Notes under the pieces: generated by a model
What the model was told of the DNA's origin: nothing
The model's input: only the letters and a program-made list of their open reading frames with translations
The model's database searches: none
Part shown: positions 1-7,447 of the stretch, piece by piece
Numbering within the stretch: position 1 is the first letter of the stretch
How the letters are laid out: each line of letters begins with the position of its first letter
Program-made: the position numbers and the translations under genes
Source of the DNA: an uncultured Gammaproteobacteria bacterium
Lineage (GTDB): Bacteria; Pseudomonadota; Gammaproteobacteria; Ga0077536
Reading direction: 5' to 3'
DNA length: 64,000 bases
NCBI GenBank assembly: GCA_938082545.1
Contig: CALKCL010000019.1
Coordinates: 3,914-67,913 of the forward strand

Positions 1-426
1 AATAGAGCCTCCACCAGATGATTTCATTCTGGAGCCGACTAAGGCCATAAGTCTGAAGGGTGCTTTCAAATTAATTGCGATAACTTTGTCGAATAAATCT
101 TCGGACACGTCTTCCAACGATGGATATAAAGGAGACATCCCCGCGTTATTTACAAGGATGTCTATTTTTCCTAAAGCACTTTCAACTTGATTAACCATCG
201 GTTCAAGTTGGTCCCATTTTCCCACATGGCATGCAAAGGGGAATGCCCTTGTTCCAATGTCTCTGATTTCGGCAGCGACCGACTCACAAGACTCAATCTT
301 CCTACTGACAATGGCTATGTTAGCCCCTTCTTTCGCAAATGCTAGTGCCATAGTGCGACCCAGTCCCCTACTCCCCCCTGTGATTAAGACAGTTTTACCT
401 GCTAATTGTTTGCTAATCTCAGTCAT
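1..426 (-). CDS. SDR family NAD(P)-dependent oxidoreductase (3' end runs off the window)
   Basis: Not in the ORF track. Manual translation from ATG at 426: MTEISKQLAGKTVLITGGSRGLGRTMALAFAKEGANIAIVSRK...GKIDILVNNAGMSP...; TGxxxGxG and NNAG motifs; start overlaps the stop of the upstream ORF by 8 nt. Confidence 0.93.
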   Translation of the reverse strand, partial: MTEISKQLAGKTVLITGGSRGLGRTMALAFAKEGANIAIVSRKIESCESVAAEIRDIGTRAFPFACHVGKWDQLEPMVNQVESALGKIDILVNNAGMSPLYPSLEDVSEDLFDKVIAINLKAPFRLMALVGSRMKSSGGGSI

Positions 427-898
427 TTTTTGGTCGTCCTAATAAAGAATTTATGCCGATCGCTAATAAGACTACCACGACTAAGACGCTCGGGAGTCCA
501 GGGAGAAAACCCAGTACACTTAAAAAACTGCTTTCTCCAAGCGGGTTGTCTCCTAATGTCAGAGCGCGATTGGCGACGGCATTCCCTATCCAGTAAAACA
601 ATGTGAATGACCATGCCGCATAACTGAAGCCGTAAACCATAAACTTGTTTTTCAGCTCTGATAATTCCAACATTGGTAATGATAGAGCCACAACCATTAC
701 CAGCAATCCATTAAGGATCCCACCAGTATGTGCCCGGACCCAACCTTCGGTTGTGCCGTAACTCGGTAGCTCAATAATATACCCAGGCCAGACTTCTAGC
801 CCTCCAACAAGCTGAAATAGCAGCATAAATCCTGCAAGCATTGCTATAAGGATCACAAGCATGCCATTAATCATCATAATCCGTTGTAATTCTTTCAT
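419..898 (-). CDS. styC: Styrene-oxide isomerase (StyC)-like heme b membrane protein
   Basis: Four hydrophobic segments. LVGGLEVWPGYIIEL, EGWVRAHTGGILNG, FY and NRALTLGDNPLG align without gaps to the recalled Pseudomonas StyC (LVGGFEIIPGYIIEF, EGWARAHSGPALNG, FY, NRGLTFGPNQFG). Confidence 0.85.
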   Translation of the reverse strand: MKELQRIMMINGMLVILIAMLAGFMLLFQLVGGLEVWPGYIIELPSYGTTEGWVRAHTGGILNGLLVMVVALSLPMLELSELKNKFMVYGFSYAAWSFTLFYWIGNAVANRALTLGDNPLGESSFLSVLGFLPGLPSVLVVVVLLAIGINSLLGRPKND

Positions 899-975: not shown

Positions 976-1830
976 TTAGAAAGGAATCGGCATGAGCGGA
1001 TCTGAAGTATCTACTAAGGGCTGCTTCTGTGGGTCGCAAGGTGGATAGGCTTCGACCCACTCGCTAAACCACTGAGGGTCTTTCGAGTTGCGCGGGTCAT
1101 GCCATGGTAGAAGAGCATTTAGAAAATAAGGACCTATATTCCAAATAATCGACCCTACTAAACTAGCAATACCGAGTTGTCCTTTTAAAGTCCAAAGTAG
1201 TCCATCTTTTTTCATGGCGGCGAGCATTCCTGCAAAGGAATATCCTAAAACATGGAAGCTACCGTGGAACACTCCTAAAGCCCTCGTGAAATATGAGCCT
1301 GAGCACGCCATATAGACGTCAAACGCTACGGTTTTATGCTCTGCTTCCTCTATCATGTGCATTAACCAAAAAGAGGAGATATAAGGGCAGGCATTTTTAA
1401 ATAATTTAGTTCTCTTTCCGAGAAGCCACTTGGTGAAGCCCTGAGTCATAGTTTCAAATCCAGCACTATAAGCGAGTTTTACTGGCAAAGATCTTCCGGA
1501 TAGTTTTTGATAGGAATATCGAATTTTGTCTTCAATTTCTTTGAATTCGGGATAACCGTTTTTATTCAGTAAAACGTTTAAGCGCTTATGACATTCGTGG
1601 TGTCGATACTCTTGACCATTGAATTGCTTAATATCGTGTAAAAGCTCGGGGTCTTGTATCAGTTTCCGAGCTTCGTCATTCGTTCGGCACAGATAGGGCT
1701 CTAGGTACGGCATAGTCAGAGAGACGCCGTTGAAAAAATGGGCAAAGACAGGATTATTTGTATTCCATTTTGGATTTAGATCGTTGGGAAAATCAAAGCT
1801 AAATGCCCGAAGTACAATATTACGCTTCAT
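976..1830 (-). CDS. 'Metal-dependent hydrolase' family protein (PF10118-like), probably a ferritin-like diiron protein
   Basis: FFNGVSLTMPYLEPYL, QEYRHH, AGFET, HMIEEAEHKTVAFDVY. Start moved to ATG 1830 (MKRNIVLR), which follows GGGGAG-N6; the ORF track starts at 1878. Confidence 0.75.
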   Translation of the reverse strand: MKRNIVLRAFSFDFPNDLNPKWNTNNPVFAHFFNGVSLTMPYLEPYLCRTNDEARKLIQDPELLHDIKQFNGQEYRHHECHKRLNVLLNKNGYPEFKEIEDKIRYSYQKLSGRSLPVKLAYSAGFETMTQGFTKWLLGKRTKLFKNACPYISSFWLMHMIEEAEHKTVAFDVYMACSGSYFTRALGVFHGSFHVLGYSFAGMLAAMKKDGLLWTLKGQLGIASLVGSIIWNIGPYFLNALLPWHDPRNSKDPQWFSEWVEAYPPCDPQKQPLVDTSDPLMPIPF

Positions 1831-2012: not shown

Positions 2013-2876
2013 CTATCTTATAAACGACTGCAATGCATCGTTACAAACCCCTGAGATGTCAGGGCGTCCTATGTCTTGCAATGCCGGTGCAGGAAAGTCC
2101 TTATTTAAAGCTACCGATTCGAGAGCATGCCTTTGCCCTTTAAATATGAGACCTAAAGGCAATCTTTTCTCTTCGCGTAATTCTTGCATACGAGTGAATG
2201 CCGCAGCCCGATTTGTAGGGTCATACCCTTCCTCGGCATCTACATCATAAACGCTGGTCCGCCAATCTCTGTAGGTGTCATTGTACGTTACACAGGGAGA
2301 CAAGACTTCCAGGTATGACATACCTCCACCTTCAGCGGTGTGTTTAAGCGCGGCTAAAGTTAAGTCAAGTAATTGAGCAGGCTGCCCGCTATAAGCTCTG
2401 GCCAGAAAAGTCGAACCGGGAATACTTAATCCCAACATAACCGGGTCAAGATCTTCTTCTAAGTTATCTTGATAGCCAGTAGGGGCTGTTGGAGAAGCCT
2501 GCCCCTTGGTCAAACCATAAGTGCCGTTGTTCATGACTATATAGGTCACTCCCGGATTACGTTTGAAAGCATGTACCAGGTGACCACCCCCGATAGCATA
2601 GCCATCCCCGTCTCCACCGACGCCAACGACGGTCAGTTCAGGGTTAGCCAACTTCGAACCCGTTACAGTCGGTAAGACTCGGCCATGCAAAGTGTGGTAC
2701 CCGTAACAAGAAAGATTATTCTGCAGGGAGCCTGAGCAGCCAATCCCCGCCACAACCATTCTTTCATGAGGAGGGATTTTTAGTTCCTCTAATGCACTGA
2801 CCAATGCCTGTAAGACTCCGAAATCTCCACAGCCGGCACACCAGATAGGTCGTGAGGGAGTAAATGTTTTTGTCAT
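2013..2876 (-). CDS. korB: 2-oxoacid:ferredoxin oxidoreductase beta (TPP-binding) subunit
   Basis: WCAGCGDFG, GIGCS, HGRVLP, GGDGDGYAIGGGH, NNGTYGLTKGQASPT, LSPCVTYN. Confidence 0.9.
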   Translation of the reverse strand: MTKTFTPSRPIWCAGCGDFGVLQALVSALEELKIPPHERMVVAGIGCSGSLQNNLSCYGYHTLHGRVLPTVTGSKLANPELTVVGVGGDGDGYAIGGGHLVHAFKRNPGVTYIVMNNGTYGLTKGQASPTAPTGYQDNLEEDLDPVMLGLSIPGSTFLARAYSGQPAQLLDLTLAALKHTAEGGGMSYLEVLSPCVTYNDTYRDWRTSVYDVDAEEGYDPTNRAAAFTRMQELREEKRLPLGLIFKGQRHALESVALNKDFPAPALQDIGRPDISGVCNDALQSFIR

Positions 2877-4660
2877 GCGACTTCATCCTCTTTGAGATTC
2901 AGCTTACTAATAACGCTATTCACTAAGTCTTGCGCTTGCATTGGAATACCATCATAACGAAGTATATTGTTGATATTTTCTTCTTCACCGCCATGCGCAA
3001 TGATTAACTTAGCTAGTTGAGCCGTAGCGTTATATTCAACAACAAAAATATTAGGGCAGCGTTTCGTGAACGCTGGAGTATCATCTAACATCGGCCATAA
3101 CGTTCTGACCTGGTGATATTGCGCTAAAATACCCTTCTGGGCCAGTAGATCTATTGCTTCAAGAATCACGCCATAACACATGCCAACACCAATAAACCCG
3201 ATATCTGCAGTCTCCACTCCATGGTTTATAGCCAGGGGTAGCTCAGGTTTCATCGACACCATCTTGTGCTGCCGCTTGGCAACCATCTTGTTTCTATTTA
3301 TGGGGTCTGTTGATACGAGGCCAAACTCATCATGTTCATTCCCAGTAACCAACCCCATACCACCAGGTGTGCCTGGCGGTGCAAAGTCGGAGGCACCACT
3401 ATCTGTATGCAAATACCGTTTGTATACTTCTAGCTTAGAAACTTGCTCGGCATCTAATCGCCCGCCTCGATCTATAACTACGGATGAGAGGTCTATCGGA
3501 TCAACCGTTGCAGTATTCTGAGACAAGCCTTGATCCAAGCACATAAAGACTGGAACTTGATATTTTTCAGCTATGTTGCATGCCGTCACGGTTAAGTGAA
3601 AGCATTCTGCAGGATTCCCTGGAGCCAGCACGACTCTTGGAAAATCTCCAGCACCACCATAACAAAGTAAGTTAATATCGCTTTGCTCGGGCTTAGTTGG
3701 CATCCCGGTACTCGGCCCGCTTCGTTGAGCATCAACAATGACCATCGGTATTTCTGCCATTCCCAGTTGACCAATGCCTTCTTGCATTAGCGCTATGCCC
3801 GGTCCACAGGTCGCAGTCATGGTCCTAGTACCGGTAATTGCGGCACCGATAGCCATGTTTATAGCAGAGAGCTCATCTTCGGCCTGCTTTACGACACCCC
3901 CAAACTTAGGAAGCCATTTCACCAACCATTCCATTACATCAGTTGAGGGAGTAATAGGGTAACCTGCAAAGAATCTTCCACCAGCAACTGCAAATCCAAA
4001 AGCAACGGCTTCATTTCCAGTGATTAGCATGTGGGCCTTCGAGTCTGTTGCAACTATTTCGAACAAACCTTCGCCTATCGTCAAGCCTGCGTCGTCAGCA
4101 AGTGTGCAGCCAACGTTCAACGCATCCAAATTATACTTGAGCGCTTGTGCACCTCTTCTTCCAAAACGCTTATCAAAAGCGATCTTCATTTGGCCATCGT
4201 CAAGACCTATCAATCTTCCTATCACCGCAAACGAAATACTATTTTTATAAATATCTCTTCTGAAATTTTTAACAGCATATCTGCTCAGAGGAACACCAAT
4301 CAGCCGGACACCTTCAGGTAATTTAGATTCGGCCGTCAACTCTCCATTTGAACTATCATAAATAACGATACTTTTCGCATTTAATCGGAAGGCATATTTT
4401 GGTATCGCCGCCTGATCAAAGGCCACCATTAAATCGATATGACTACTAATGCACAGTCGCTCTCCATTATAGGCACGCAAAGTAGCAGCTGTGATTCCGC
4501 CTTTGATTCGTGAGAGAACGTCTCTTTCGGTATAAACTCTCAAACCTGATGTACGAAGTACATCAGCAAGAATATTAACTACCGTCAGAGATCCGTCTCC
4601 GCCTTGTCCAGCTACAATTACATTGAGGTCTTCTAACCGAGGCTTCGTACTATTATTCAT
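2873..4660 (-). CDS. korA: 2-oxoacid:ferredoxin oxidoreductase alpha subunit (gamma-alpha fusion)
   Basis: N-terminal GQGGDG gamma domain; GYPITPS, QAEDE, QRSGPSTGMPTKPEQSD, GNEHDE; 4-nt overlap with the beta gene. Confidence 0.9.
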   Translation of the reverse strand: MNNSTKPRLEDLNVIVAGQGGDGSLTVVNILADVLRTSGLRVYTERDVLSRIKGGITAATLRAYNGERLCISSHIDLMVAFDQAAIPKYAFRLNAKSIVIYDSSNGELTAESKLPEGVRLIGVPLSRYAVKNFRRDIYKNSISFAVIGRLIGLDDGQMKIAFDKRFGRRGAQALKYNLDALNVGCTLADDAGLTIGEGLFEIVATDSKAHMLITGNEAVAFGFAVAGGRFFAGYPITPSTDVMEWLVKWLPKFGGVVKQAEDELSAINMAIGAAITGTRTMTATCGPGIALMQEGIGQLGMAEIPMVIVDAQRSGPSTGMPTKPEQSDINLLCYGGAGDFPRVVLAPGNPAECFHLTVTACNIAEKYQVPVFMCLDQGLSQNTATVDPIDLSSVVIDRGGRLDAEQVSKLEVYKRYLHTDSGASDFAPPGTPGGMGLVTGNEHDEFGLVSTDPINRNKMVAKRQHKMVSMKPELPLAINHGVETADIGFIGVGMCYGVILEAIDLLAQKGILAQYHQVRTLWPMLDDTPAFTKRCPNIFVVEYNATAQLAKLIIAHGGEEENINNILRYDGIPMQAQDLVNSVISKLNLKEDEVA

Positions 4661-5982
4661 TTCCCTTCTCCATCATTTGTTTGAGGGATCTTCTTTTTCT
4701 TGCGCGGCGGCGGCGGTAGTGGACGCCAGTTTTTTGCAGAAGCTCCATCTTCCCAACCACGATAGTAATTTTTAGGATCAAGATTTCCTATTTCGGCGCG
4801 CTCCTCTAATGATGGCATCAATGCAGGCAATGGGCGATTGCGTTTATATTCGGACAATCTAATGACTAAGTCTTTGCCTAGAGGAGCTTCTTCAAACTCC
4901 TTCGTCTCTACCCAACCATCATCAATTAAAGCTTGGAAAGCTTTATGCCCCGCCTCAGTCCTTATGATAGTAAAGGTCCATTTATCCATGCCGATACCAC
5001 CCAGTGCTATATCTGCATTGTCAGCAGAATAGTCCATACAGTAAAGGCAAGCTGGTCGAGCGTACTTTCCGAAGGCCTTAAGCGATTTCACTTCCTCTCG
5101 ACCATCTCTCAATTTTATTTCAACTCGGCCCTTGATATTAATGTTCATAATATCTTTTTTAGGAACGTCTAAATCTTGAGCTAACCAGTCAATACCTTCT
5201 TCAGTGAAAGCCTCTGAGCATAACAGCCCTATGACCAAAGAAATATTGTCTTGGTACCACTCTGCAACGTCAAGACGGATGCTAGAAAACTGCTGTTGTC
5301 GCACACCATTGACTTGGCAAGGAACTCCCACAACGGCAAGAGGAGAGAGATCTTTTTTCATAGCTTCGATAAGCGCTAATGTGTTTGGTTGGTAGGTGTA
5401 GCGCGAGCGAGCCCCTTTAATCACCTCTTCAGGAGTTGTCTGCAGCATGGAGCTTCCCATTTGAGGGTTGTCCGCATGCTCCTCTCCTGCAACAGCAGCG
5501 TTAATCGTGCCATTTTTCATCCCATGCAAAAGAAGAGCCGTACAAACGCCACCATCTTGGCCTTGATCAACAGTCGCCTTATCGGTAGCTCTCGCATAGA
5601 CTCCATAATTATAAGGACCGAACCCTTCATCTTTTACGGGCTCTTTTAATTGGATCTGATCTTTCATGTCTCGATCAGTCGGTCTAAGTACTGGACAAAC
5701 GTCGACGCATAATTCACAAAACACACATGCGTTATGTCTAGTGTCTAGGGGAACTTCATCTTTGTAGTCGAAAACGTCCACTGGACATATCGTGACACAG
5801 GCTGCGCACCCAATACATTTTCCTGGATCAACCACTTCTTCCATAAGAAGATCAACTGCTTTGAACCCACCTCGGTTATATTCGGATCTCCAAGCATAGG
5901 CCCATTCGTTCGGATCAGCGCCCTGATCAACCAAACGGTGATAACGACCTTGAACTTCTTTGGTTAAATTATCTAGATCCAA
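4657..5982 (-). CDS. FrhB/FdhB-family Fe-S flavoprotein with N-terminal 2x[4Fe-4S] domain
   Basis: CIGCAACVTICP and CVFCELCVDVCP; QDGGVCTALL, VGVPCQV, IGLLCSE, CLYCMDYSADNADIALG; TTG start after a GGAG-rich RBS; 4-nt overlap with korA. Confidence 0.85.
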   Translation of the reverse strand: MDLDNLTKEVQGRYHRLVDQGADPNEWAYAWRSEYNRGGFKAVDLLMEEVVDPGKCIGCAACVTICPVDVFDYKDEVPLDTRHNACVFCELCVDVCPVLRPTDRDMKDQIQLKEPVKDEGFGPYNYGVYARATDKATVDQGQDGGVCTALLLHGMKNGTINAAVAGEEHADNPQMGSSMLQTTPEEVIKGARSRYTYQPNTLALIEAMKKDLSPLAVVGVPCQVNGVRQQQFSSIRLDVAEWYQDNISLVIGLLCSEAFTEEGIDWLAQDLDVPKKDIMNINIKGRVEIKLRDGREEVKSLKAFGKYARPACLYCMDYSADNADIALGGIGMDKWTFTIIRTEAGHKAFQALIDDGWVETKEFEEAPLGKDLVIRLSEYKRNRPLPALMPSLEERAEIGNLDPKNYYRGWEDGASAKNWRPLPPPPRKKKKIPQTNDGEGK

Positions 5983-6220: not shown

Positions 6221-7447
6221 TTAAAAGAATCTAATTATTTCCAATTGTATCGAGTCATCTTCTCTAACTGGATAAAAAGCATCATGATCTGCCGTGTCGT
6301 AAGTAAAACGTGCCTCTAACTCCATTTTCCAATGATTCCCAAACCGGCGGCTAGCTTCTAAATTTGTAAAATATCCCCCATTATTCATGTCTGCGCCAAT
6401 TCCTCCTAGCAATTGGGTATCAGCGGCATCGTTCATGGCAACTCTCATTCCAGTGAAAATATCGTTGTTAAAAGCACCTGTAGACTTAAAGCCTCTTTCA
6501 TCCCAATGGTATTCACTTAATAGACCTAAATCTATTACGGTACCTCCAATTCCTACAAGCGTGTATTCAAAACCACTTACAGAGGCAAAATACGTCTTAT
6601 CTTGTCCCTGCCGCCTCATAACCTCTAGCTTTAGCAACCAATTTTGAAGCGTGGCTTGCAAATCTAAGCTCGTTTGGTGAATTAGATCGTAATAAGGCAC
6701 CAAACTAAGCTCTCCCTGGGCGGACTTTCGCGCCAAAAACCGAGGCATTCGGCTGGTCCCCCAGAAATGACTTAGACCCAGATCGAGAGGGCCTAAGTAG
6801 CCGGAAAAACGTACCGCGTAATCAATATGCTTCTCCTCCGCAGCAGATTGGTACATGGATGAGCTTTGATCAATCTTTATACTCGAACGAAATCGTGCAT
6901 CTTTATCCGGAAAAGTTCTTTCCCTGAAACCCGGCAAAACAAAAAAGTCAGCAGTACCCCAGTCCCGTACTAGCGTTAAATTGACCATTGGCTGACCCAG
7001 TTTATCCTCCAGGTCTGTGTTTTCGACCGCATCGCTTTGGTTAATAATATCTATTAAGTGGTTCGACTCGGCGACACCCCAGAATACTTTTCCTATTCCC
7101 GCCCTAAGTTCCCAGGATGTGCTGTTGTAATTGTAAATGAATTCCCGCAGATCTACATGAGTGCGCCTTGAGTCGTATTGGTCAAGTCGAGCAAACGGAA
7201 CCAACAGGACGCTATGTCTCTCATCACCCCACGTTTTGTAAAATTCAGGTTGAAAAGCTAATGACACGTTCTCATTTTTCTGATTGTCATGAAGTCCTTT
7301 ATTGGGGAAAGCTCTGAACTCTAAAGACAGATACCCAGATATCTCGGTGGCTTCAGCACCTATTAGATCAGCAACGAAGAAAAAGCTAAAAACAACAACA
7401 GCTACGAAATAGGATAATTTATTACTCAGTACTTGGCTTAATGTCAT
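6221..7447 (-). CDS. Outer-membrane beta-barrel protein of unknown function (DUF1302-like)
   Basis: N-terminal signal-like segment, alternating beta-strand pattern, DLREF / ELRAGIGKVFWG / DIINQSD motifs, C-terminal Phe. Confidence 0.65.
   Translation of the reverse strand: MTLSQVLSNKLSYFVAVVVFSFFFVADLIGAEATEISGYLSLEFRAFPNKGLHDNQKNENVSLAFQPEFYKTWGDERHSVLLVPFARLDQYDSRRTHVDLREFIYNYNSTSWELRAGIGKVFWGVAESNHLIDIINQSDAVENTDLEDKLGQPMVNLTLVRDWGTADFFVLPGFRERTFPDKDARFRSSIKIDQSSSMYQSAAEEKHIDYAVRFSGYLGPLDLGLSHFWGTSRMPRFLARKSAQGELSLVPYYDLIHQTSLDLQATLQNWLLKLEVMRRQGQDKTYFASVSGFEYTLVGIGGTVIDLGLLSEYHWDERGFKSTGAFNNDIFTGMRVAMNDAADTQLLGGIGADMNNGGYFTNLEASRRFGNHWKMELEARFTYDTADHDAFYPVREDDSIQLEIIRFF

What the first reader, a model, noticed from the sequence alone, without database searches (positions are those of the whole stretch)
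419..898. StyC homologue keeps the heme/catalytic residues but has a changed pocket
Ungapped alignment to the recalled Pseudomonas StyC gives H57=H58 (heme axial), N63=N64 and Y102=Y103 (catalytic). Nearby positions differ: P61->G, D95->A, N99->F. This suggests an active heme b epoxide isomerase with a different substrate, of biocatalytic interest. The reference numbering is from memory and needs checking.
Basis: partly seen in the sequence, partly recalled or inferred. Interest (0 to 1): 0.6.

Follow-up and report, generated by a model that had tools for sequence, protein, structure and literature searches.

The report
Isomerase-like haem protein, diiron-paired
This small membrane protein is a true relative of the haem enzyme styrene oxide isomerase, but it belongs to a widespread aquatic branch that has replaced one essential pocket residue and always travels with a diiron oxygenase-like partner instead of the styrene genes, so it probably acts on an unknown, non-styrene compound.

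Summary
The 159-aa ORF at 419-898 (-) aligns along its full length with solved styrene oxide isomerases (SOI). All six residue correspondences hold in native Pseudomonas numbering: H57=H58, N63=N64, Y102=Y103, G60=P61, A94=D95, F98=N99.

- **Pocket changes.** P61G and D95A are common across the superfamily. N99 is near-universal, and N99A inactivates Pseudomonas SOI. N99F defines a single clade.
- **Family score.** The protein scores below NCBI's StyC cut-off (121.8 against 150 bits).
- **Context.** No styA was found in the 88.5%-complete genome.
- **Partner.** This clade is inherited together with an upstream PF10118 "metal-dependent hydrolase". That protein models as a ferritin-like diiron protein with an AurF/CmlI-type ligand pattern and a C-terminal tail specific to the SOI-paired clade.
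- **Local extras.** In this lineage only, an SDR gene overlaps the SOI-like stop codon by 8 nt, and 2-oxoacid:ferredoxin oxidoreductase genes lie upstream.

Best reading (about 0.45): an oxygenase plus haem Lewis-acid isomerase pair acting on an unknown lipophilic substrate. Main rival: a haem partner or membrane anchor of the diiron protein.

This scan has already reported the same pair on other genomes. I found no paper describing it.

The parts
419..898 (-). SOI-like gene, 159 aa, four transmembrane helices (stop codon 419-421)
   Evidence: ORF. NCBIfam StyC NF045734 121.8 bits against a cut-off of 150. PDB 30tw and 8pnu E 1e-25 to 1e-22. Model against 8pnu_A gives TM 0.93.
728..730 (-). 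H57 codon, equivalent to the axial haem ligand H58 of Pseudomonas SOI
   Evidence: Alignments. 39 of 40 F99-clade sequences keep it, and it is the only conserved His.
710..712 (-). N63 codon, equivalent to N64 (binds the epoxide oxygen)
   Evidence: Invariant in the clade.
593..595 (-). Y102 codon, equivalent to Y103 (hydrogen bond to the epoxide oxygen)
   Evidence: 40 of 40 in the clade.
605..607 (-). F98 codon, replacing N99. This is the defining substitution of the clade.
   Evidence: Phe in every F99-clade sequence in which the position could be read. Asn in nearly all other superfamily representatives. N99A is inactive in Pseudomonas SOI.
617..619 (-). A94 codon, replacing D95
   Evidence: The position holds A/C/I/V/S in the clade and T/A/V in most of the superfamily.
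566..568 (-). R111 codon, equivalent to R112 (RoSOI1 R111, haem propionate contact)
976..1830 (-). PF10118 'metal-dependent hydrolase' gene (284 aa from the ATG at 1830). It is the conserved partner and is predicted to be a ferritin-like diiron protein.
   Evidence: Pfam 179.5 bits. Invariant E44, E74xxH77, E126, H158xxxE162xxH165 and D171. Model pLDDT 91.7. Fold hits are R2lox, RNR R2, CmlI, MMOH and AurF. Directly upstream of the SOI-like gene in about 41 of 51 genome loci.
1..426 (-). 5' part of an SDR gene (full gene 254 aa at L057:3575-4339). Its ATG lies inside the last codons of the SOI-like gene.
   Evidence: Pfam adh_short. Full ORF. Best NCBIfam 213.6 bits, below the cut-off. Present after the SOI-like gene only in L002-L006.
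419..426 (-). 8-nt overlap ATGACTGA between the SDR start codon and the SOI-like stop codon (translational coupling)
   Evidence: Read directly from the sequence.
2013..5982 (-). Lineage-specific upstream genes on the same strand: FrhB-like 4Fe-4S flavoprotein (4657-5982), 2-oxoacid:acceptor oxidoreductase alpha (2873-4660) and beta (2013-2876)
   Evidence: Conserved next to the pair only in L002-L006.

Best explanation
The ORF encodes a four-helix membrane protein of the styrene-oxide-isomerase (SOI) fold. It most likely binds ferric haem b through H57 at a trimer interface, leaves the sixth iron site open, and uses N63 and Y102 to hold an oxygen atom of its substrate on the iron. It is not StyC. 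It belongs to a monophyletic, mostly aquatic clade in which the otherwise near-universal N99 is always Phe. This clade is inherited as a unit with an upstream PF10118 protein, which is predicted to be a ferritin-like diiron oxygenase with an AurF/CmlI-type ligand set (E, ExxH, E, HxxxExxH). Proposed mechanism: the diiron protein oxygenates a lipophilic, non-styrene substrate, most simply by epoxidising a C=C bond. The haem protein then rearranges the oxygenated product to a carbonyl compound by Lewis-acid (Meinwald-type) catalysis in a more hydrophobic pocket (F98, A94, plus new invariant Y93 and Y47). In this lineage only, a translationally coupled SDR then reduces or oxidises that carbonyl, and the adjacent 2-oxoacid:ferredoxin oxidoreductase may feed electrons to the diiron centre. 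Shown: homology, fold, residue pattern, clade structure, gene pairing and co-inheritance. Inferred: haem binding, trimer, the reaction, the substrate class, and the roles of the SDR and the oxidoreductase.
For: - **SOI fold and first shell.** Full-length homology to solved SOIs. Model against 8pnu_A gives TM 0.93 and rmsd 1.2 A. H57, N63, Y102 and R111 are kept.
- **Open distal site.** There is only one conserved His and no second candidate axial ligand, which fits a substrate-binding haem rather than a bis-His electron carrier.
- **Distinct clade.** The F99 clade is monophyletic (44 rows, SH-aLRT 98). It sits inside the group that also holds canonical StyC (63 rows, SH-aLRT 98).
- **Gene pairing.** PF10118 lies directly upstream in about 41 of 51 loci from Gamma- and Alphaproteobacteria, Binatia and a MAG filed under Myxococcota, and no other neighbour is conserved.
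- **Partner clade.** All SOI-adjacent PF10118 proteins form one clade (SH-aLRT 99), separate from 22 mainstream ones.
- **Co-inheritance.** Pairwise identities of the two genes correlate with r = 0.87 (Mantel, 0 of 2000 permutations reach it).
- **Partner is diiron-like.** Invariant carboxylate and His pattern, confident all-helical model, and top fold hits that are all diiron or dimetal carboxylate proteins (RNR R2 Z 11.8, CmlI 11.7, MMOH 11.2, AurF 10.8, R2lox 10.5).
- **Oxidative context of the wider family.** Mainstream PF10118 genes sit beside FMO/Baeyer-Villiger-type monooxygenases, SDRs, aldehyde dehydrogenase and AraC/TetR regulators. This is a lipophilic oxidation context.
- **SDR coupling.** The SDR start overlaps the SOI-like stop by 8 nt.
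Against: - N99A abolishes activity in Pseudomonas SOI, and here the residue is Phe.
- A divergent PF10118-paired branch (L063, L065, L067, L099) keeps the His but has also lost Y103. The pairing therefore does not require the SOI catalytic Tyr.
- No dedicated reductase is conserved with the pair.
- Fold-search Z scores of 10-12 for a helical bundle are not decisive on their own. A profile search of the partner against PDB sequences gave only spurious hits.
- No substrate, haem or metal data exist.
- Some F99-clade genes stand alone. The L008 genome has no PF10118 hit.
Confidence: 0.45

Rival explanations
1. The SOI-like protein is not an isomerase. It is the membrane haem b subunit of the diiron protein: an anchor, an electron conduit from the quinol pool or another donor, or a substrate or product channel in the membrane.
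For: The two genes are co-inherited as a unit. Tail-bearing PF10118 partners carry a conserved C-terminal tail PL[VIL]DTxxPxMPVPF that mainstream PF10118 proteins lack; it occurs with the F99 and HxEG SOI-like clades but not in the L045 partner, and it could be a docking peptide. A divergent paired branch has lost Y103 but keeps the His. No reductase is conserved with the pair. N99, which is essential for isomerase activity in Pseudomonas SOI, is lost. SOI has been proposed as a membrane anchor for the styrene enzymes (PMC12502698 abstract).
Against: In the main clade N63 and Y102 are invariant, and there is only one conserved His, so the distal site stays open as in a catalytic haem. PF10118 proteins mostly occur without any SOI-like gene: 27 of 400 genomes of the class have PF10118 against 6 of 401 with an SOI-like gene. 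Some F99-clade genes are unlinked from PF10118 or lack it.
Confidence: 0.22
2. It is a catalytic haem protein that performs a different rearrangement or cleavage of the partner's product, for example a hydroperoxide, peroxide or N-oxygenated intermediate. This would resemble CYP74 enzymes or aldoxime dehydratase, which also bind substrate directly on the haem iron, rather than an epoxide-to-carbonyl shift.
For: The partner's ligand pattern HxxxExxH matches the N-oxygenases AurF and CmlI, by my own knowledge of their ligand sets. Fold hits to CmlI (Z 11.7) and AurF (Z 10.8) agree. The second shell around the haem is remodelled (F98, A94, new invariant Y93 and Y47) while the first shell is kept.
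Against: There is no direct evidence. The nearest characterised relatives all catalyse the Meinwald rearrangement. The clade sits close to canonical StyC in the tree.
Confidence: 0.18
3. It is an ordinary styrene oxide isomerase (StyC) used in styrene or phenylacetate catabolism.
For: The best family hit is the StyC model. Some source databases label relatives 'styrene-oxide isomerase'.
Against: The score is below the equivalog cut-off (121.8 against 150). It falls in a separate clade from StyC genes that lie with styA/styB. No StyA homologue was found in the 88.5%-complete genome. None of the loci searched for StyA and StyB held them beside an F99-clade gene (L061, L064 and L097-L100), and no shared neighbour other than PF10118 appeared at the 51 genome loci. 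N99 and D95 are replaced.
Confidence: 0.03

Closest known systems
Styrene oxide isomerase StyC/SOI (Pseudomonas sp. VLB120, PDB 8PNU/8PNV; Rhodococcus opacus 1CP RoSOI1; PDB 30tw; NCBIfam NF045734; Pfam PF26512)
   Same: Same length class and four-helix fold (TM 0.93 to 8pnu_A) at 35-41% identity. The axial His, N64, W97, F102, Y103, N111 and R112 are kept, so the haem site and first-shell oxygen-binding residues are the same.
   Different: - N99 is Phe, D95 is Ala, G96 is Ala, P61 is Gly and V100 is Thr. New invariant residues are Y47, Y93, M25 and W37.
- It scores below the StyC equivalog cut-off.
- There is no styA, styB or styD context.
- Its conserved partner is a PF10118 diiron-like protein.
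- It is found in uncultured marine, lake and groundwater bacteria rather than soil styrene degraders.
AurF / CmlI arylamine N-oxygenases and R2-like ligand-binding oxidases (ferritin-like diiron or Mn/Fe carboxylate proteins). These are comparators for the partner gene.
   Same: Helical-bundle fold hits (CmlI Z 11.7, AurF Z 10.8, R2lox Z 10.5; Foldseek probability 0.99 for R2lox). The ligand pattern is E, ExxH, E, HxxxExxH.
   Different: There is no detectable sequence similarity: the profile search against PDB sequences was empty. It belongs to a different Pfam family (PF10118, labelled hydrolase). It has a clade-specific proline-rich C-terminal tail. Metal content and substrate are unknown, and it is paired with a membrane haem protein.
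styABCD side-chain oxygenation pathway (epoxidase, then isomerase, then aldehyde dehydrogenase)
   Same: The gene logic of the window's lineage is similar: a putative oxygenase, then an SOI-like protein, then a dehydrogenase (SDR), all on one strand, with start-stop overlap between the last two genes.
   Different: The oxygenase is diiron-like rather than the flavin enzyme StyA/StyB. The dehydrogenase is an SDR rather than an ALDH-family StyD. Only the first two genes are conserved outside this lineage.

Membership tests
SOI superfamily (fold and haem site; Pfam PF26512, PDB 8PNU) | Full-length sequence and fold homology to a solved SOI (four transmembrane helices) | tested here: met
   E 6.8e-25 and 1.3e-22 over residues 4-152. 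TM 0.93/0.96 and rmsd 1.2 A to 8pnu_A.
SOI superfamily (fold and haem site; Pfam PF26512, PDB 8PNU) | Axial haem ligand His (H58) and propionate-binding Arg (R112) | tested here: met
   H57 and R111 align to them and are conserved in the clade.
SOI superfamily (fold and haem site; Pfam PF26512, PDB 8PNU) | Actual haem b binding at a trimer interface | not testable with these tools
   Only monomer prediction is available. This needs expression, a Soret spectrum or haem stain, or an oligomer model with haem.
Catalytically competent styrene oxide isomerase (Meinwald catalyst as in Pseudomonas SOI) | First-shell residues N64 and Y103 that hold the epoxide oxygen | tested here: met
   N63 and Y102. 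Invariant in 40 of 40 clade members.
Catalytically competent styrene oxide isomerase (Meinwald catalyst as in Pseudomonas SOI) | N99 of hydrogen-bond network 1 (the N99A variant is inactive) | tested here: not met
   The window has F98. Phe is invariant in the clade. Asn is near-universal elsewhere. Mutant data are in PMC11374702.
Catalytically competent styrene oxide isomerase (Meinwald catalyst as in Pseudomonas SOI) | D95 of network 1 (the D95A variant is impaired) | tested here: not met
   The window has A94. This feature is weak: D95 is confined to the canonical clade, and RoSOI1 D94A remains active.
StyC equivalog (NCBIfam NF045734) | Score at or above the curated cut-off of 150 bits | tested here: not met
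   121.8 bits and 121.4 bits in the genome search.
StyC equivalog (NCBIfam NF045734) | Genomic association with styA/styB (epoxidase) and a phenylacetaldehyde dehydrogenase | tested here: not met
   No StyA homologue in the own genome at 88.5% completeness. None in the F99-clade loci that were searched. Canonical loci do have them.
Ferritin-like diiron carboxylate oxygenases, AurF/CmlI type (partner gene 976-1830) | Ligand pattern E, ExxH, E, HxxxExxH on the helices of the predicted bundle | tested here: met
   Invariant E44, E74/H77, E126, H158/E162/H165 in 37 sequences. They fall on separate predicted helices. The comparison with the AurF/CmlI ligand sets rests on my own knowledge.
Ferritin-like diiron carboxylate oxygenases, AurF/CmlI type (partner gene 976-1830) | Ferritin-like helical-bundle fold | tested here: inconclusive
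   All top hits are diiron or dimetal proteins (Z 10.5-11.8; Foldseek probability 0.99 but E about 0.1). The tool warns that Z below about 13 is common for helical bundles. I could not inspect the ligand geometry in the model.
Ferritin-like diiron carboxylate oxygenases, AurF/CmlI type (partner gene 976-1830) | Binds two metal ions and activates O2 | not testable with these tools
   Needs metal analysis and activity assays.

The most novel reading that the evidence does not exclude
The PF10118/SOI-like pair is an undescribed two-protein membrane system in which a diiron oxygenase and a haem b Lewis-acid catalyst act in sequence on a lipophilic natural substrate, such as an alkene, isoprenoid or membrane lipid. 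It would be common in uncultured marine, lake and groundwater bacteria. The F99 pocket would represent a natural SOI variant with non-aryl substrate specificity or a new haem-catalysed rearrangement.
Probability: 0.4. Interest if true: 0.7.

Novelty: new variant of a known kind. Interest (0 to 1): 0.5.

Why it matters
SOI is the only known enzyme that uses haem iron as a Lewis acid for the Meinwald rearrangement, and it is sought after in biocatalysis. All characterised members act on aryl epoxides from styrene catabolism.

- **A natural pocket variant.** A large clade keeps the first shell but replaces an essential second-shell Asn with Phe. This could widen the known substrate range, or show that the fold supports other chemistry.
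- **A misnamed partner family.** The strict pairing with a PF10118 protein suggests that this "hydrolase" family is really a family of diiron oxygenases.
- **An unrecognised route.** The pair may mark an oxidation route for hydrophobic compounds in abundant uncultured aquatic bacteria.

All of this is untested.

Tried and rejected
I took gene context from the search for related loci and the genome search instead.
- **Fused forms.** A search for longer proteins found no SOI-like fusion (weak evidence).
- **P0254.** This 3017-aa protein scored 107 bits in the representative search. It is a 53-aa tandem-repeat artefact with only 14-16-residue matches, so I rejected it.
- **Partner against PDB sequences.** Neither the single sequence nor the profile gave a real hit; the LeuO and S15 hits are spurious.
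- **Literature.** Searches for PF10118, COG3687 and DUF2265, for a link between a "metal-dependent hydrolase" and almA/Baeyer-Villiger enzymes, and for SOI family surveys found nothing on this pair.
- **ESM Atlas.** It only returned the protein's own family name.
- **Promoter and terminator scan.** Counts were at chance level.
- **SDR orthology.** The window's SDR is not orthologous to the SDRs beside mainstream PF10118 genes (25% identity).
- **Canonical StyC and pseudogene readings.** Rejected, as set out under rival explanations. The ORF is intact and conserved across phyla.
- **Not done.** I could not inspect model coordinates, build a trimer with haem, or model the two-protein complex with these tools.
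Full report
**1. The observation**

The window holds an intact 159-aa ORF at 419-898 on the minus strand. It matches only styrene oxide isomerases among PDB sequences. The hits are 30tw (E 6.8e-25) and 8pnu (E 1.3e-22), covering residues 4-152 with one single-residue gap near the C-terminus.

I fetched the native StyC of Pseudomonas sp. VLB120 from plasmid pSTY, where it follows styA and styB. Its 169-aa sequence carries H58, P61, N64, D95, N99, Y103 and R112 at exactly those numbers.

The alignment puts window H57, G60, N63, A94, F98, Y102 and R111 on those positions. I confirmed the codons in the raw sequence. An AlphaFold2 monomer built on 42 family members has pLDDT 95.8 and four long helices. 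It superposes on 8pnu_A with TM 0.93/0.96 and rmsd 1.2 A, and this is the only significant PDB match.

**2. What the changed positions mean**

The cryo-EM paper on Pseudomonas SOI (PMC11374702) reports the following:
- H58 is the axial ligand of a ferric haem b at the trimer interface.
- Y103 and N64 hold the epoxide oxygen.
- N64A and D95A are strongly impaired.
- N99A and Y103A are completely inactive.

The Rhodococcus study (PMC12502698) adds that H57A loses haem and activity. It also finds that R111A has weakened haem binding and that D94A stays active in whole cells.

I searched 1.84 billion cluster representatives. Only 164 clusters match at E <= 1e-3, so this is a small superfamily. I aligned the 72 full-length representatives:
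- H58, N64, W97, N99, F102, Y103 and R112 are near-universal.
- D95 is confined to the canonical StyC clade; elsewhere the position is mostly T, A or V.
- G at position 61 is common.

The third (N99F) replaces a residue that is both near-universal and experimentally essential.

**3. The protein belongs to a distinct clade**

In 46 SOI-like genes aligned from the 51 loci recovered from species-representative genomes, the signature is constant. It comprises G61, a small or hydrophobic residue at 95, A96, F99, T100, Y103, W104 and R112. Further loci read by tblastn agree.

A maximum-likelihood tree of 111 sequences gives this F99 clade SH-aLRT 98 (44 rows). It lies within a group (63 rows, SH-aLRT 98) that also contains the canonical StyC clade (SH-aLRT 99). 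Its nearest neighbours still have Asn at 99 (L044, P0248).

Compared with canonical StyC, the clade has gained invariant Y47, Y93, M25 and W37. It keeps a single conserved His. That fits an open distal haem site better than a bis-His electron carrier.

The window protein scores 121.8 bits on NCBI's StyC equivalog model, below the cut-off of 150.

Carriers are uncultured Gamma- and Alphaproteobacteria (Parvibaculales, Rhodobiaceae, PS1), Binatia and a MAG filed under Myxococcota. They come from sea water, lakes and groundwater. The family is sparse: 6 of 401 sampled genomes of the class have any SOI-like gene. The nearest public record is MAG UBA4457 at 99% identity.

**4. Gene context**

No StyA homologue was found in the window's own genome, which is 2.03 Mb and 88.5% complete. 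The gene directly upstream (976-1830, minus strand) is a PF10118 "predicted metal-dependent hydrolase".

A homologue of this gene lies directly upstream of the SOI-like gene in about 41 of the 51 loci. All-against-all clustering of neighbouring ORFs found no other gene shared by more than 10 loci. Canonical sty loci have no PF10118 gene.

In a PF10118 tree, all SOI-adjacent copies form one clade (43 rows, SH-aLRT 99). The 22 "mainstream" copies from other genomes fall outside it. Pairwise identities of the two genes across 36 loci correlate with r = 0.87, and 0 of 2000 Mantel permutations reach that value. The Binatia sequences nest among gammaproteobacterial ones in both trees. The two genes therefore move as a unit.

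Tail-bearing PF10118 partners also carry a conserved C-terminal tail, PL[VIL]DTxxPxMPVPF. Mainstream PF10118 proteins lack it, and so does the divergent L045 partner described below.

There are exceptions. Three Pseudomonadales MAGs carry a stand-alone F99-clade gene among unrelated neighbours (TonB-dependent receptors, HAAS, GLF, PGM):
- L008's genome has no PF10118 hit.
- L010's genome has a tail-bearing PF10118 gene elsewhere, unlinked.
- L016's genome has only a divergent PF10118 without the tail.

**5. What the partner is**

The name "hydrolase" is probably wrong. Thirty-seven homologues share invariant E44, Q73-E74-x-x-H77, E126, H158-x3-E162-x2-H165 and D171. This is an E / ExxH / E / HxxxExxH pattern. 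By my own knowledge, it matches the ligand sets of the diiron N-oxygenases AurF and CmlI.

The AlphaFold2 model is confident (pLDDT 91.7, pTM 0.91) and all-helical. Foldseek's best hits are R2-like ligand-binding oxidases, NrdB, CmlI, AurF and acyl-ACP desaturases (probability up to 0.99, but E about 0.1 and TM about 0.48). An exhaustive structural search ranks RNR R2 (Z 11.8), CmlI (11.7), methane monooxygenase hydroxylase (11.2), AurF (10.8) and R2lox (10.5) on top.

These Z values are not decisive for a helical bundle, and sequence profiles find no PDB relative. The assignment therefore rests on fold and ligand motif together. I rate it likely, not proven.

Mainstream PF10118 genes occur in 27 of 400 sampled genomes, often in several copies. 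They sit beside FMO/Baeyer-Villiger-type monooxygenases, SDRs, an aldehyde dehydrogenase and AraC/TetR regulators. That is an oxidative, lipophilic-substrate context.

**6. Features specific to the window's lineage**

Only in the window and its five closest relatives (L002-L006) is the pair extended.

Downstream, an SDR gene starts with an ATG that lies inside the last codons of the SOI-like gene. The overlap is ATGACTGA at 419-426. The full SDR is 254 aa and its best NCBIfam hits are below their cut-offs.

Upstream on the same strand lie the alpha and beta subunits of a 2-oxoacid:acceptor oxidoreductase and an FrhB-like 4Fe-4S flavoprotein. A gap of about 135-180 bp separates these from the PF10118 gene. 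Whether they belong to the same operon is not established.

**7. A complication**

A much more divergent SOI-like branch is also adjacent to PF10118 genes of the same partner clade, tail included. Its members are L063, L065, L067 and L099, and its motif around the haem His is H-[LM]-E-[GA] (called the HxEG clade here). This branch has F or I at position 99 and has lost Y103 (A or S).

One genome (that of L010) carries both systems, so they are probably not redundant.

A sister sequence with N99 (L045) has a very divergent PF10118 neighbour that lacks the tail.

The pairing is therefore older than, or independent of, the catalytic Tyr. This keeps alive the reading that the haem protein is a partner subunit rather than an isomerase.

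**8. Weighing the explanations**

For the window's own clade the first shell is invariant: His, Asn, Tyr and the propionate Arg. There is a single conserved His. The closest characterised relatives are all Meinwald catalysts.

On that basis I favour, at about 0.45, a two-step module. The diiron protein oxygenates a lipophilic substrate, most simply to an epoxide. The haem protein then rearranges the product to a carbonyl in a more hydrophobic pocket. The SDR acts on that product in this lineage.

The rivals are:
- a haem anchor or electron-transfer subunit of the diiron enzyme (about 0.22);
- a different haem-catalysed rearrangement of a peroxide or N-oxygenated product (about 0.18);
- ordinary StyC (about 0.03).

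The substrate is unknown, and nothing here identifies it.

**9. Novelty**

I found no paper describing this pair or this clade. Earlier notes from this scan describe the same pair on other genomes and reach the same general reading. I saw them only after my own analysis, and they are not independent evidence.

This report adds the following:
- the superfamily-wide status of N99 against D95;
- the monophyly of the F99 clade;
- the separate PF10118 partner clade with its own C-terminal tail;
- the AurF-type ligand pattern;
- the correlation of the two gene trees;
- the BVMO and SDR context of mainstream PF10118 genes;
- the SDR coupling specific to this lineage.

I class the finding as a new variant of a known kind, with moderate interest.

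Noticed in passing
L063, L065, L067 and L099 (other genomes): A very divergent SOI-like branch keeps the haem His in an H-[LM]-E-[GA] motif. It has F or I at position 99 and A or S at position 103. It is also adjacent to PF10118 genes of the same partner clade. In L099 the gene order is reversed (SOI-like first).
   Followed up: partly
L068-L096 (PF10118 loci in 27 of 400 genomes of the class): Mainstream PF10118 genes are often multi-copy, with up to 6 matches per genome. They sit beside FMO/Baeyer-Villiger-type monooxygenases (6 loci), SDRs (6 loci), AraC/TetR regulators and an aldehyde dehydrogenase. This suggests the whole 'hydrolase' family is oxidative.
   Followed up: partly
L085:2307-3734 (+): A mainstream PF10118 gene is followed by a POR_N/TPP_enzyme_C (2-oxoacid:ferredoxin oxidoreductase-like) gene. 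This echoes the oxidoreductase genes upstream of the pair in the window and may mark a recurrent electron-supply link.
   Followed up: no
L007:6001-6486 (+): One F99-clade member has Asn in place of the haem-ligand His (VRNSGG), although its PF10118 neighbour is intact. This could be a sequencing error or a haem-free variant.
   Followed up: no
L051:1247-1626 and L052:41-205: SOI-like genes with in-frame stop codons, and in L051 a frame break. They are either decayed copies or MAG assembly errors.
   Followed up: no
L028, L029, L050 and L043: MAGs labelled Klebsiella pneumoniae or Enterobacteriaceae carry the pair at 55-68% identity to the window's SOI-like protein. The 14 named control genomes gave no SOI-family match. 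The taxonomic labels of these MAGs look doubtful.
   Followed up: no
L057:2554-3420 (-), just outside the window's start: A 288-aa ORF with a signal-peptide-like N-terminus lies downstream of the SDR on the same strand. It has no Pfam or NCBIfam match.
   Followed up: partly
window 6221-7447 (-): A 408-aa ORF with a signal-peptide-like N-terminus and a C-terminal Phe, which looks like an outer-membrane protein. It has no Pfam or NCBIfam match.
   Followed up: partly
L054 (Rhodococcus opacus 1CP plasmid pR1CP1): One annotated StyC copy lies next to a nitric oxide synthase oxygenase gene and an IS1380 transposase, not next to styA/styB.
   Followed up: no
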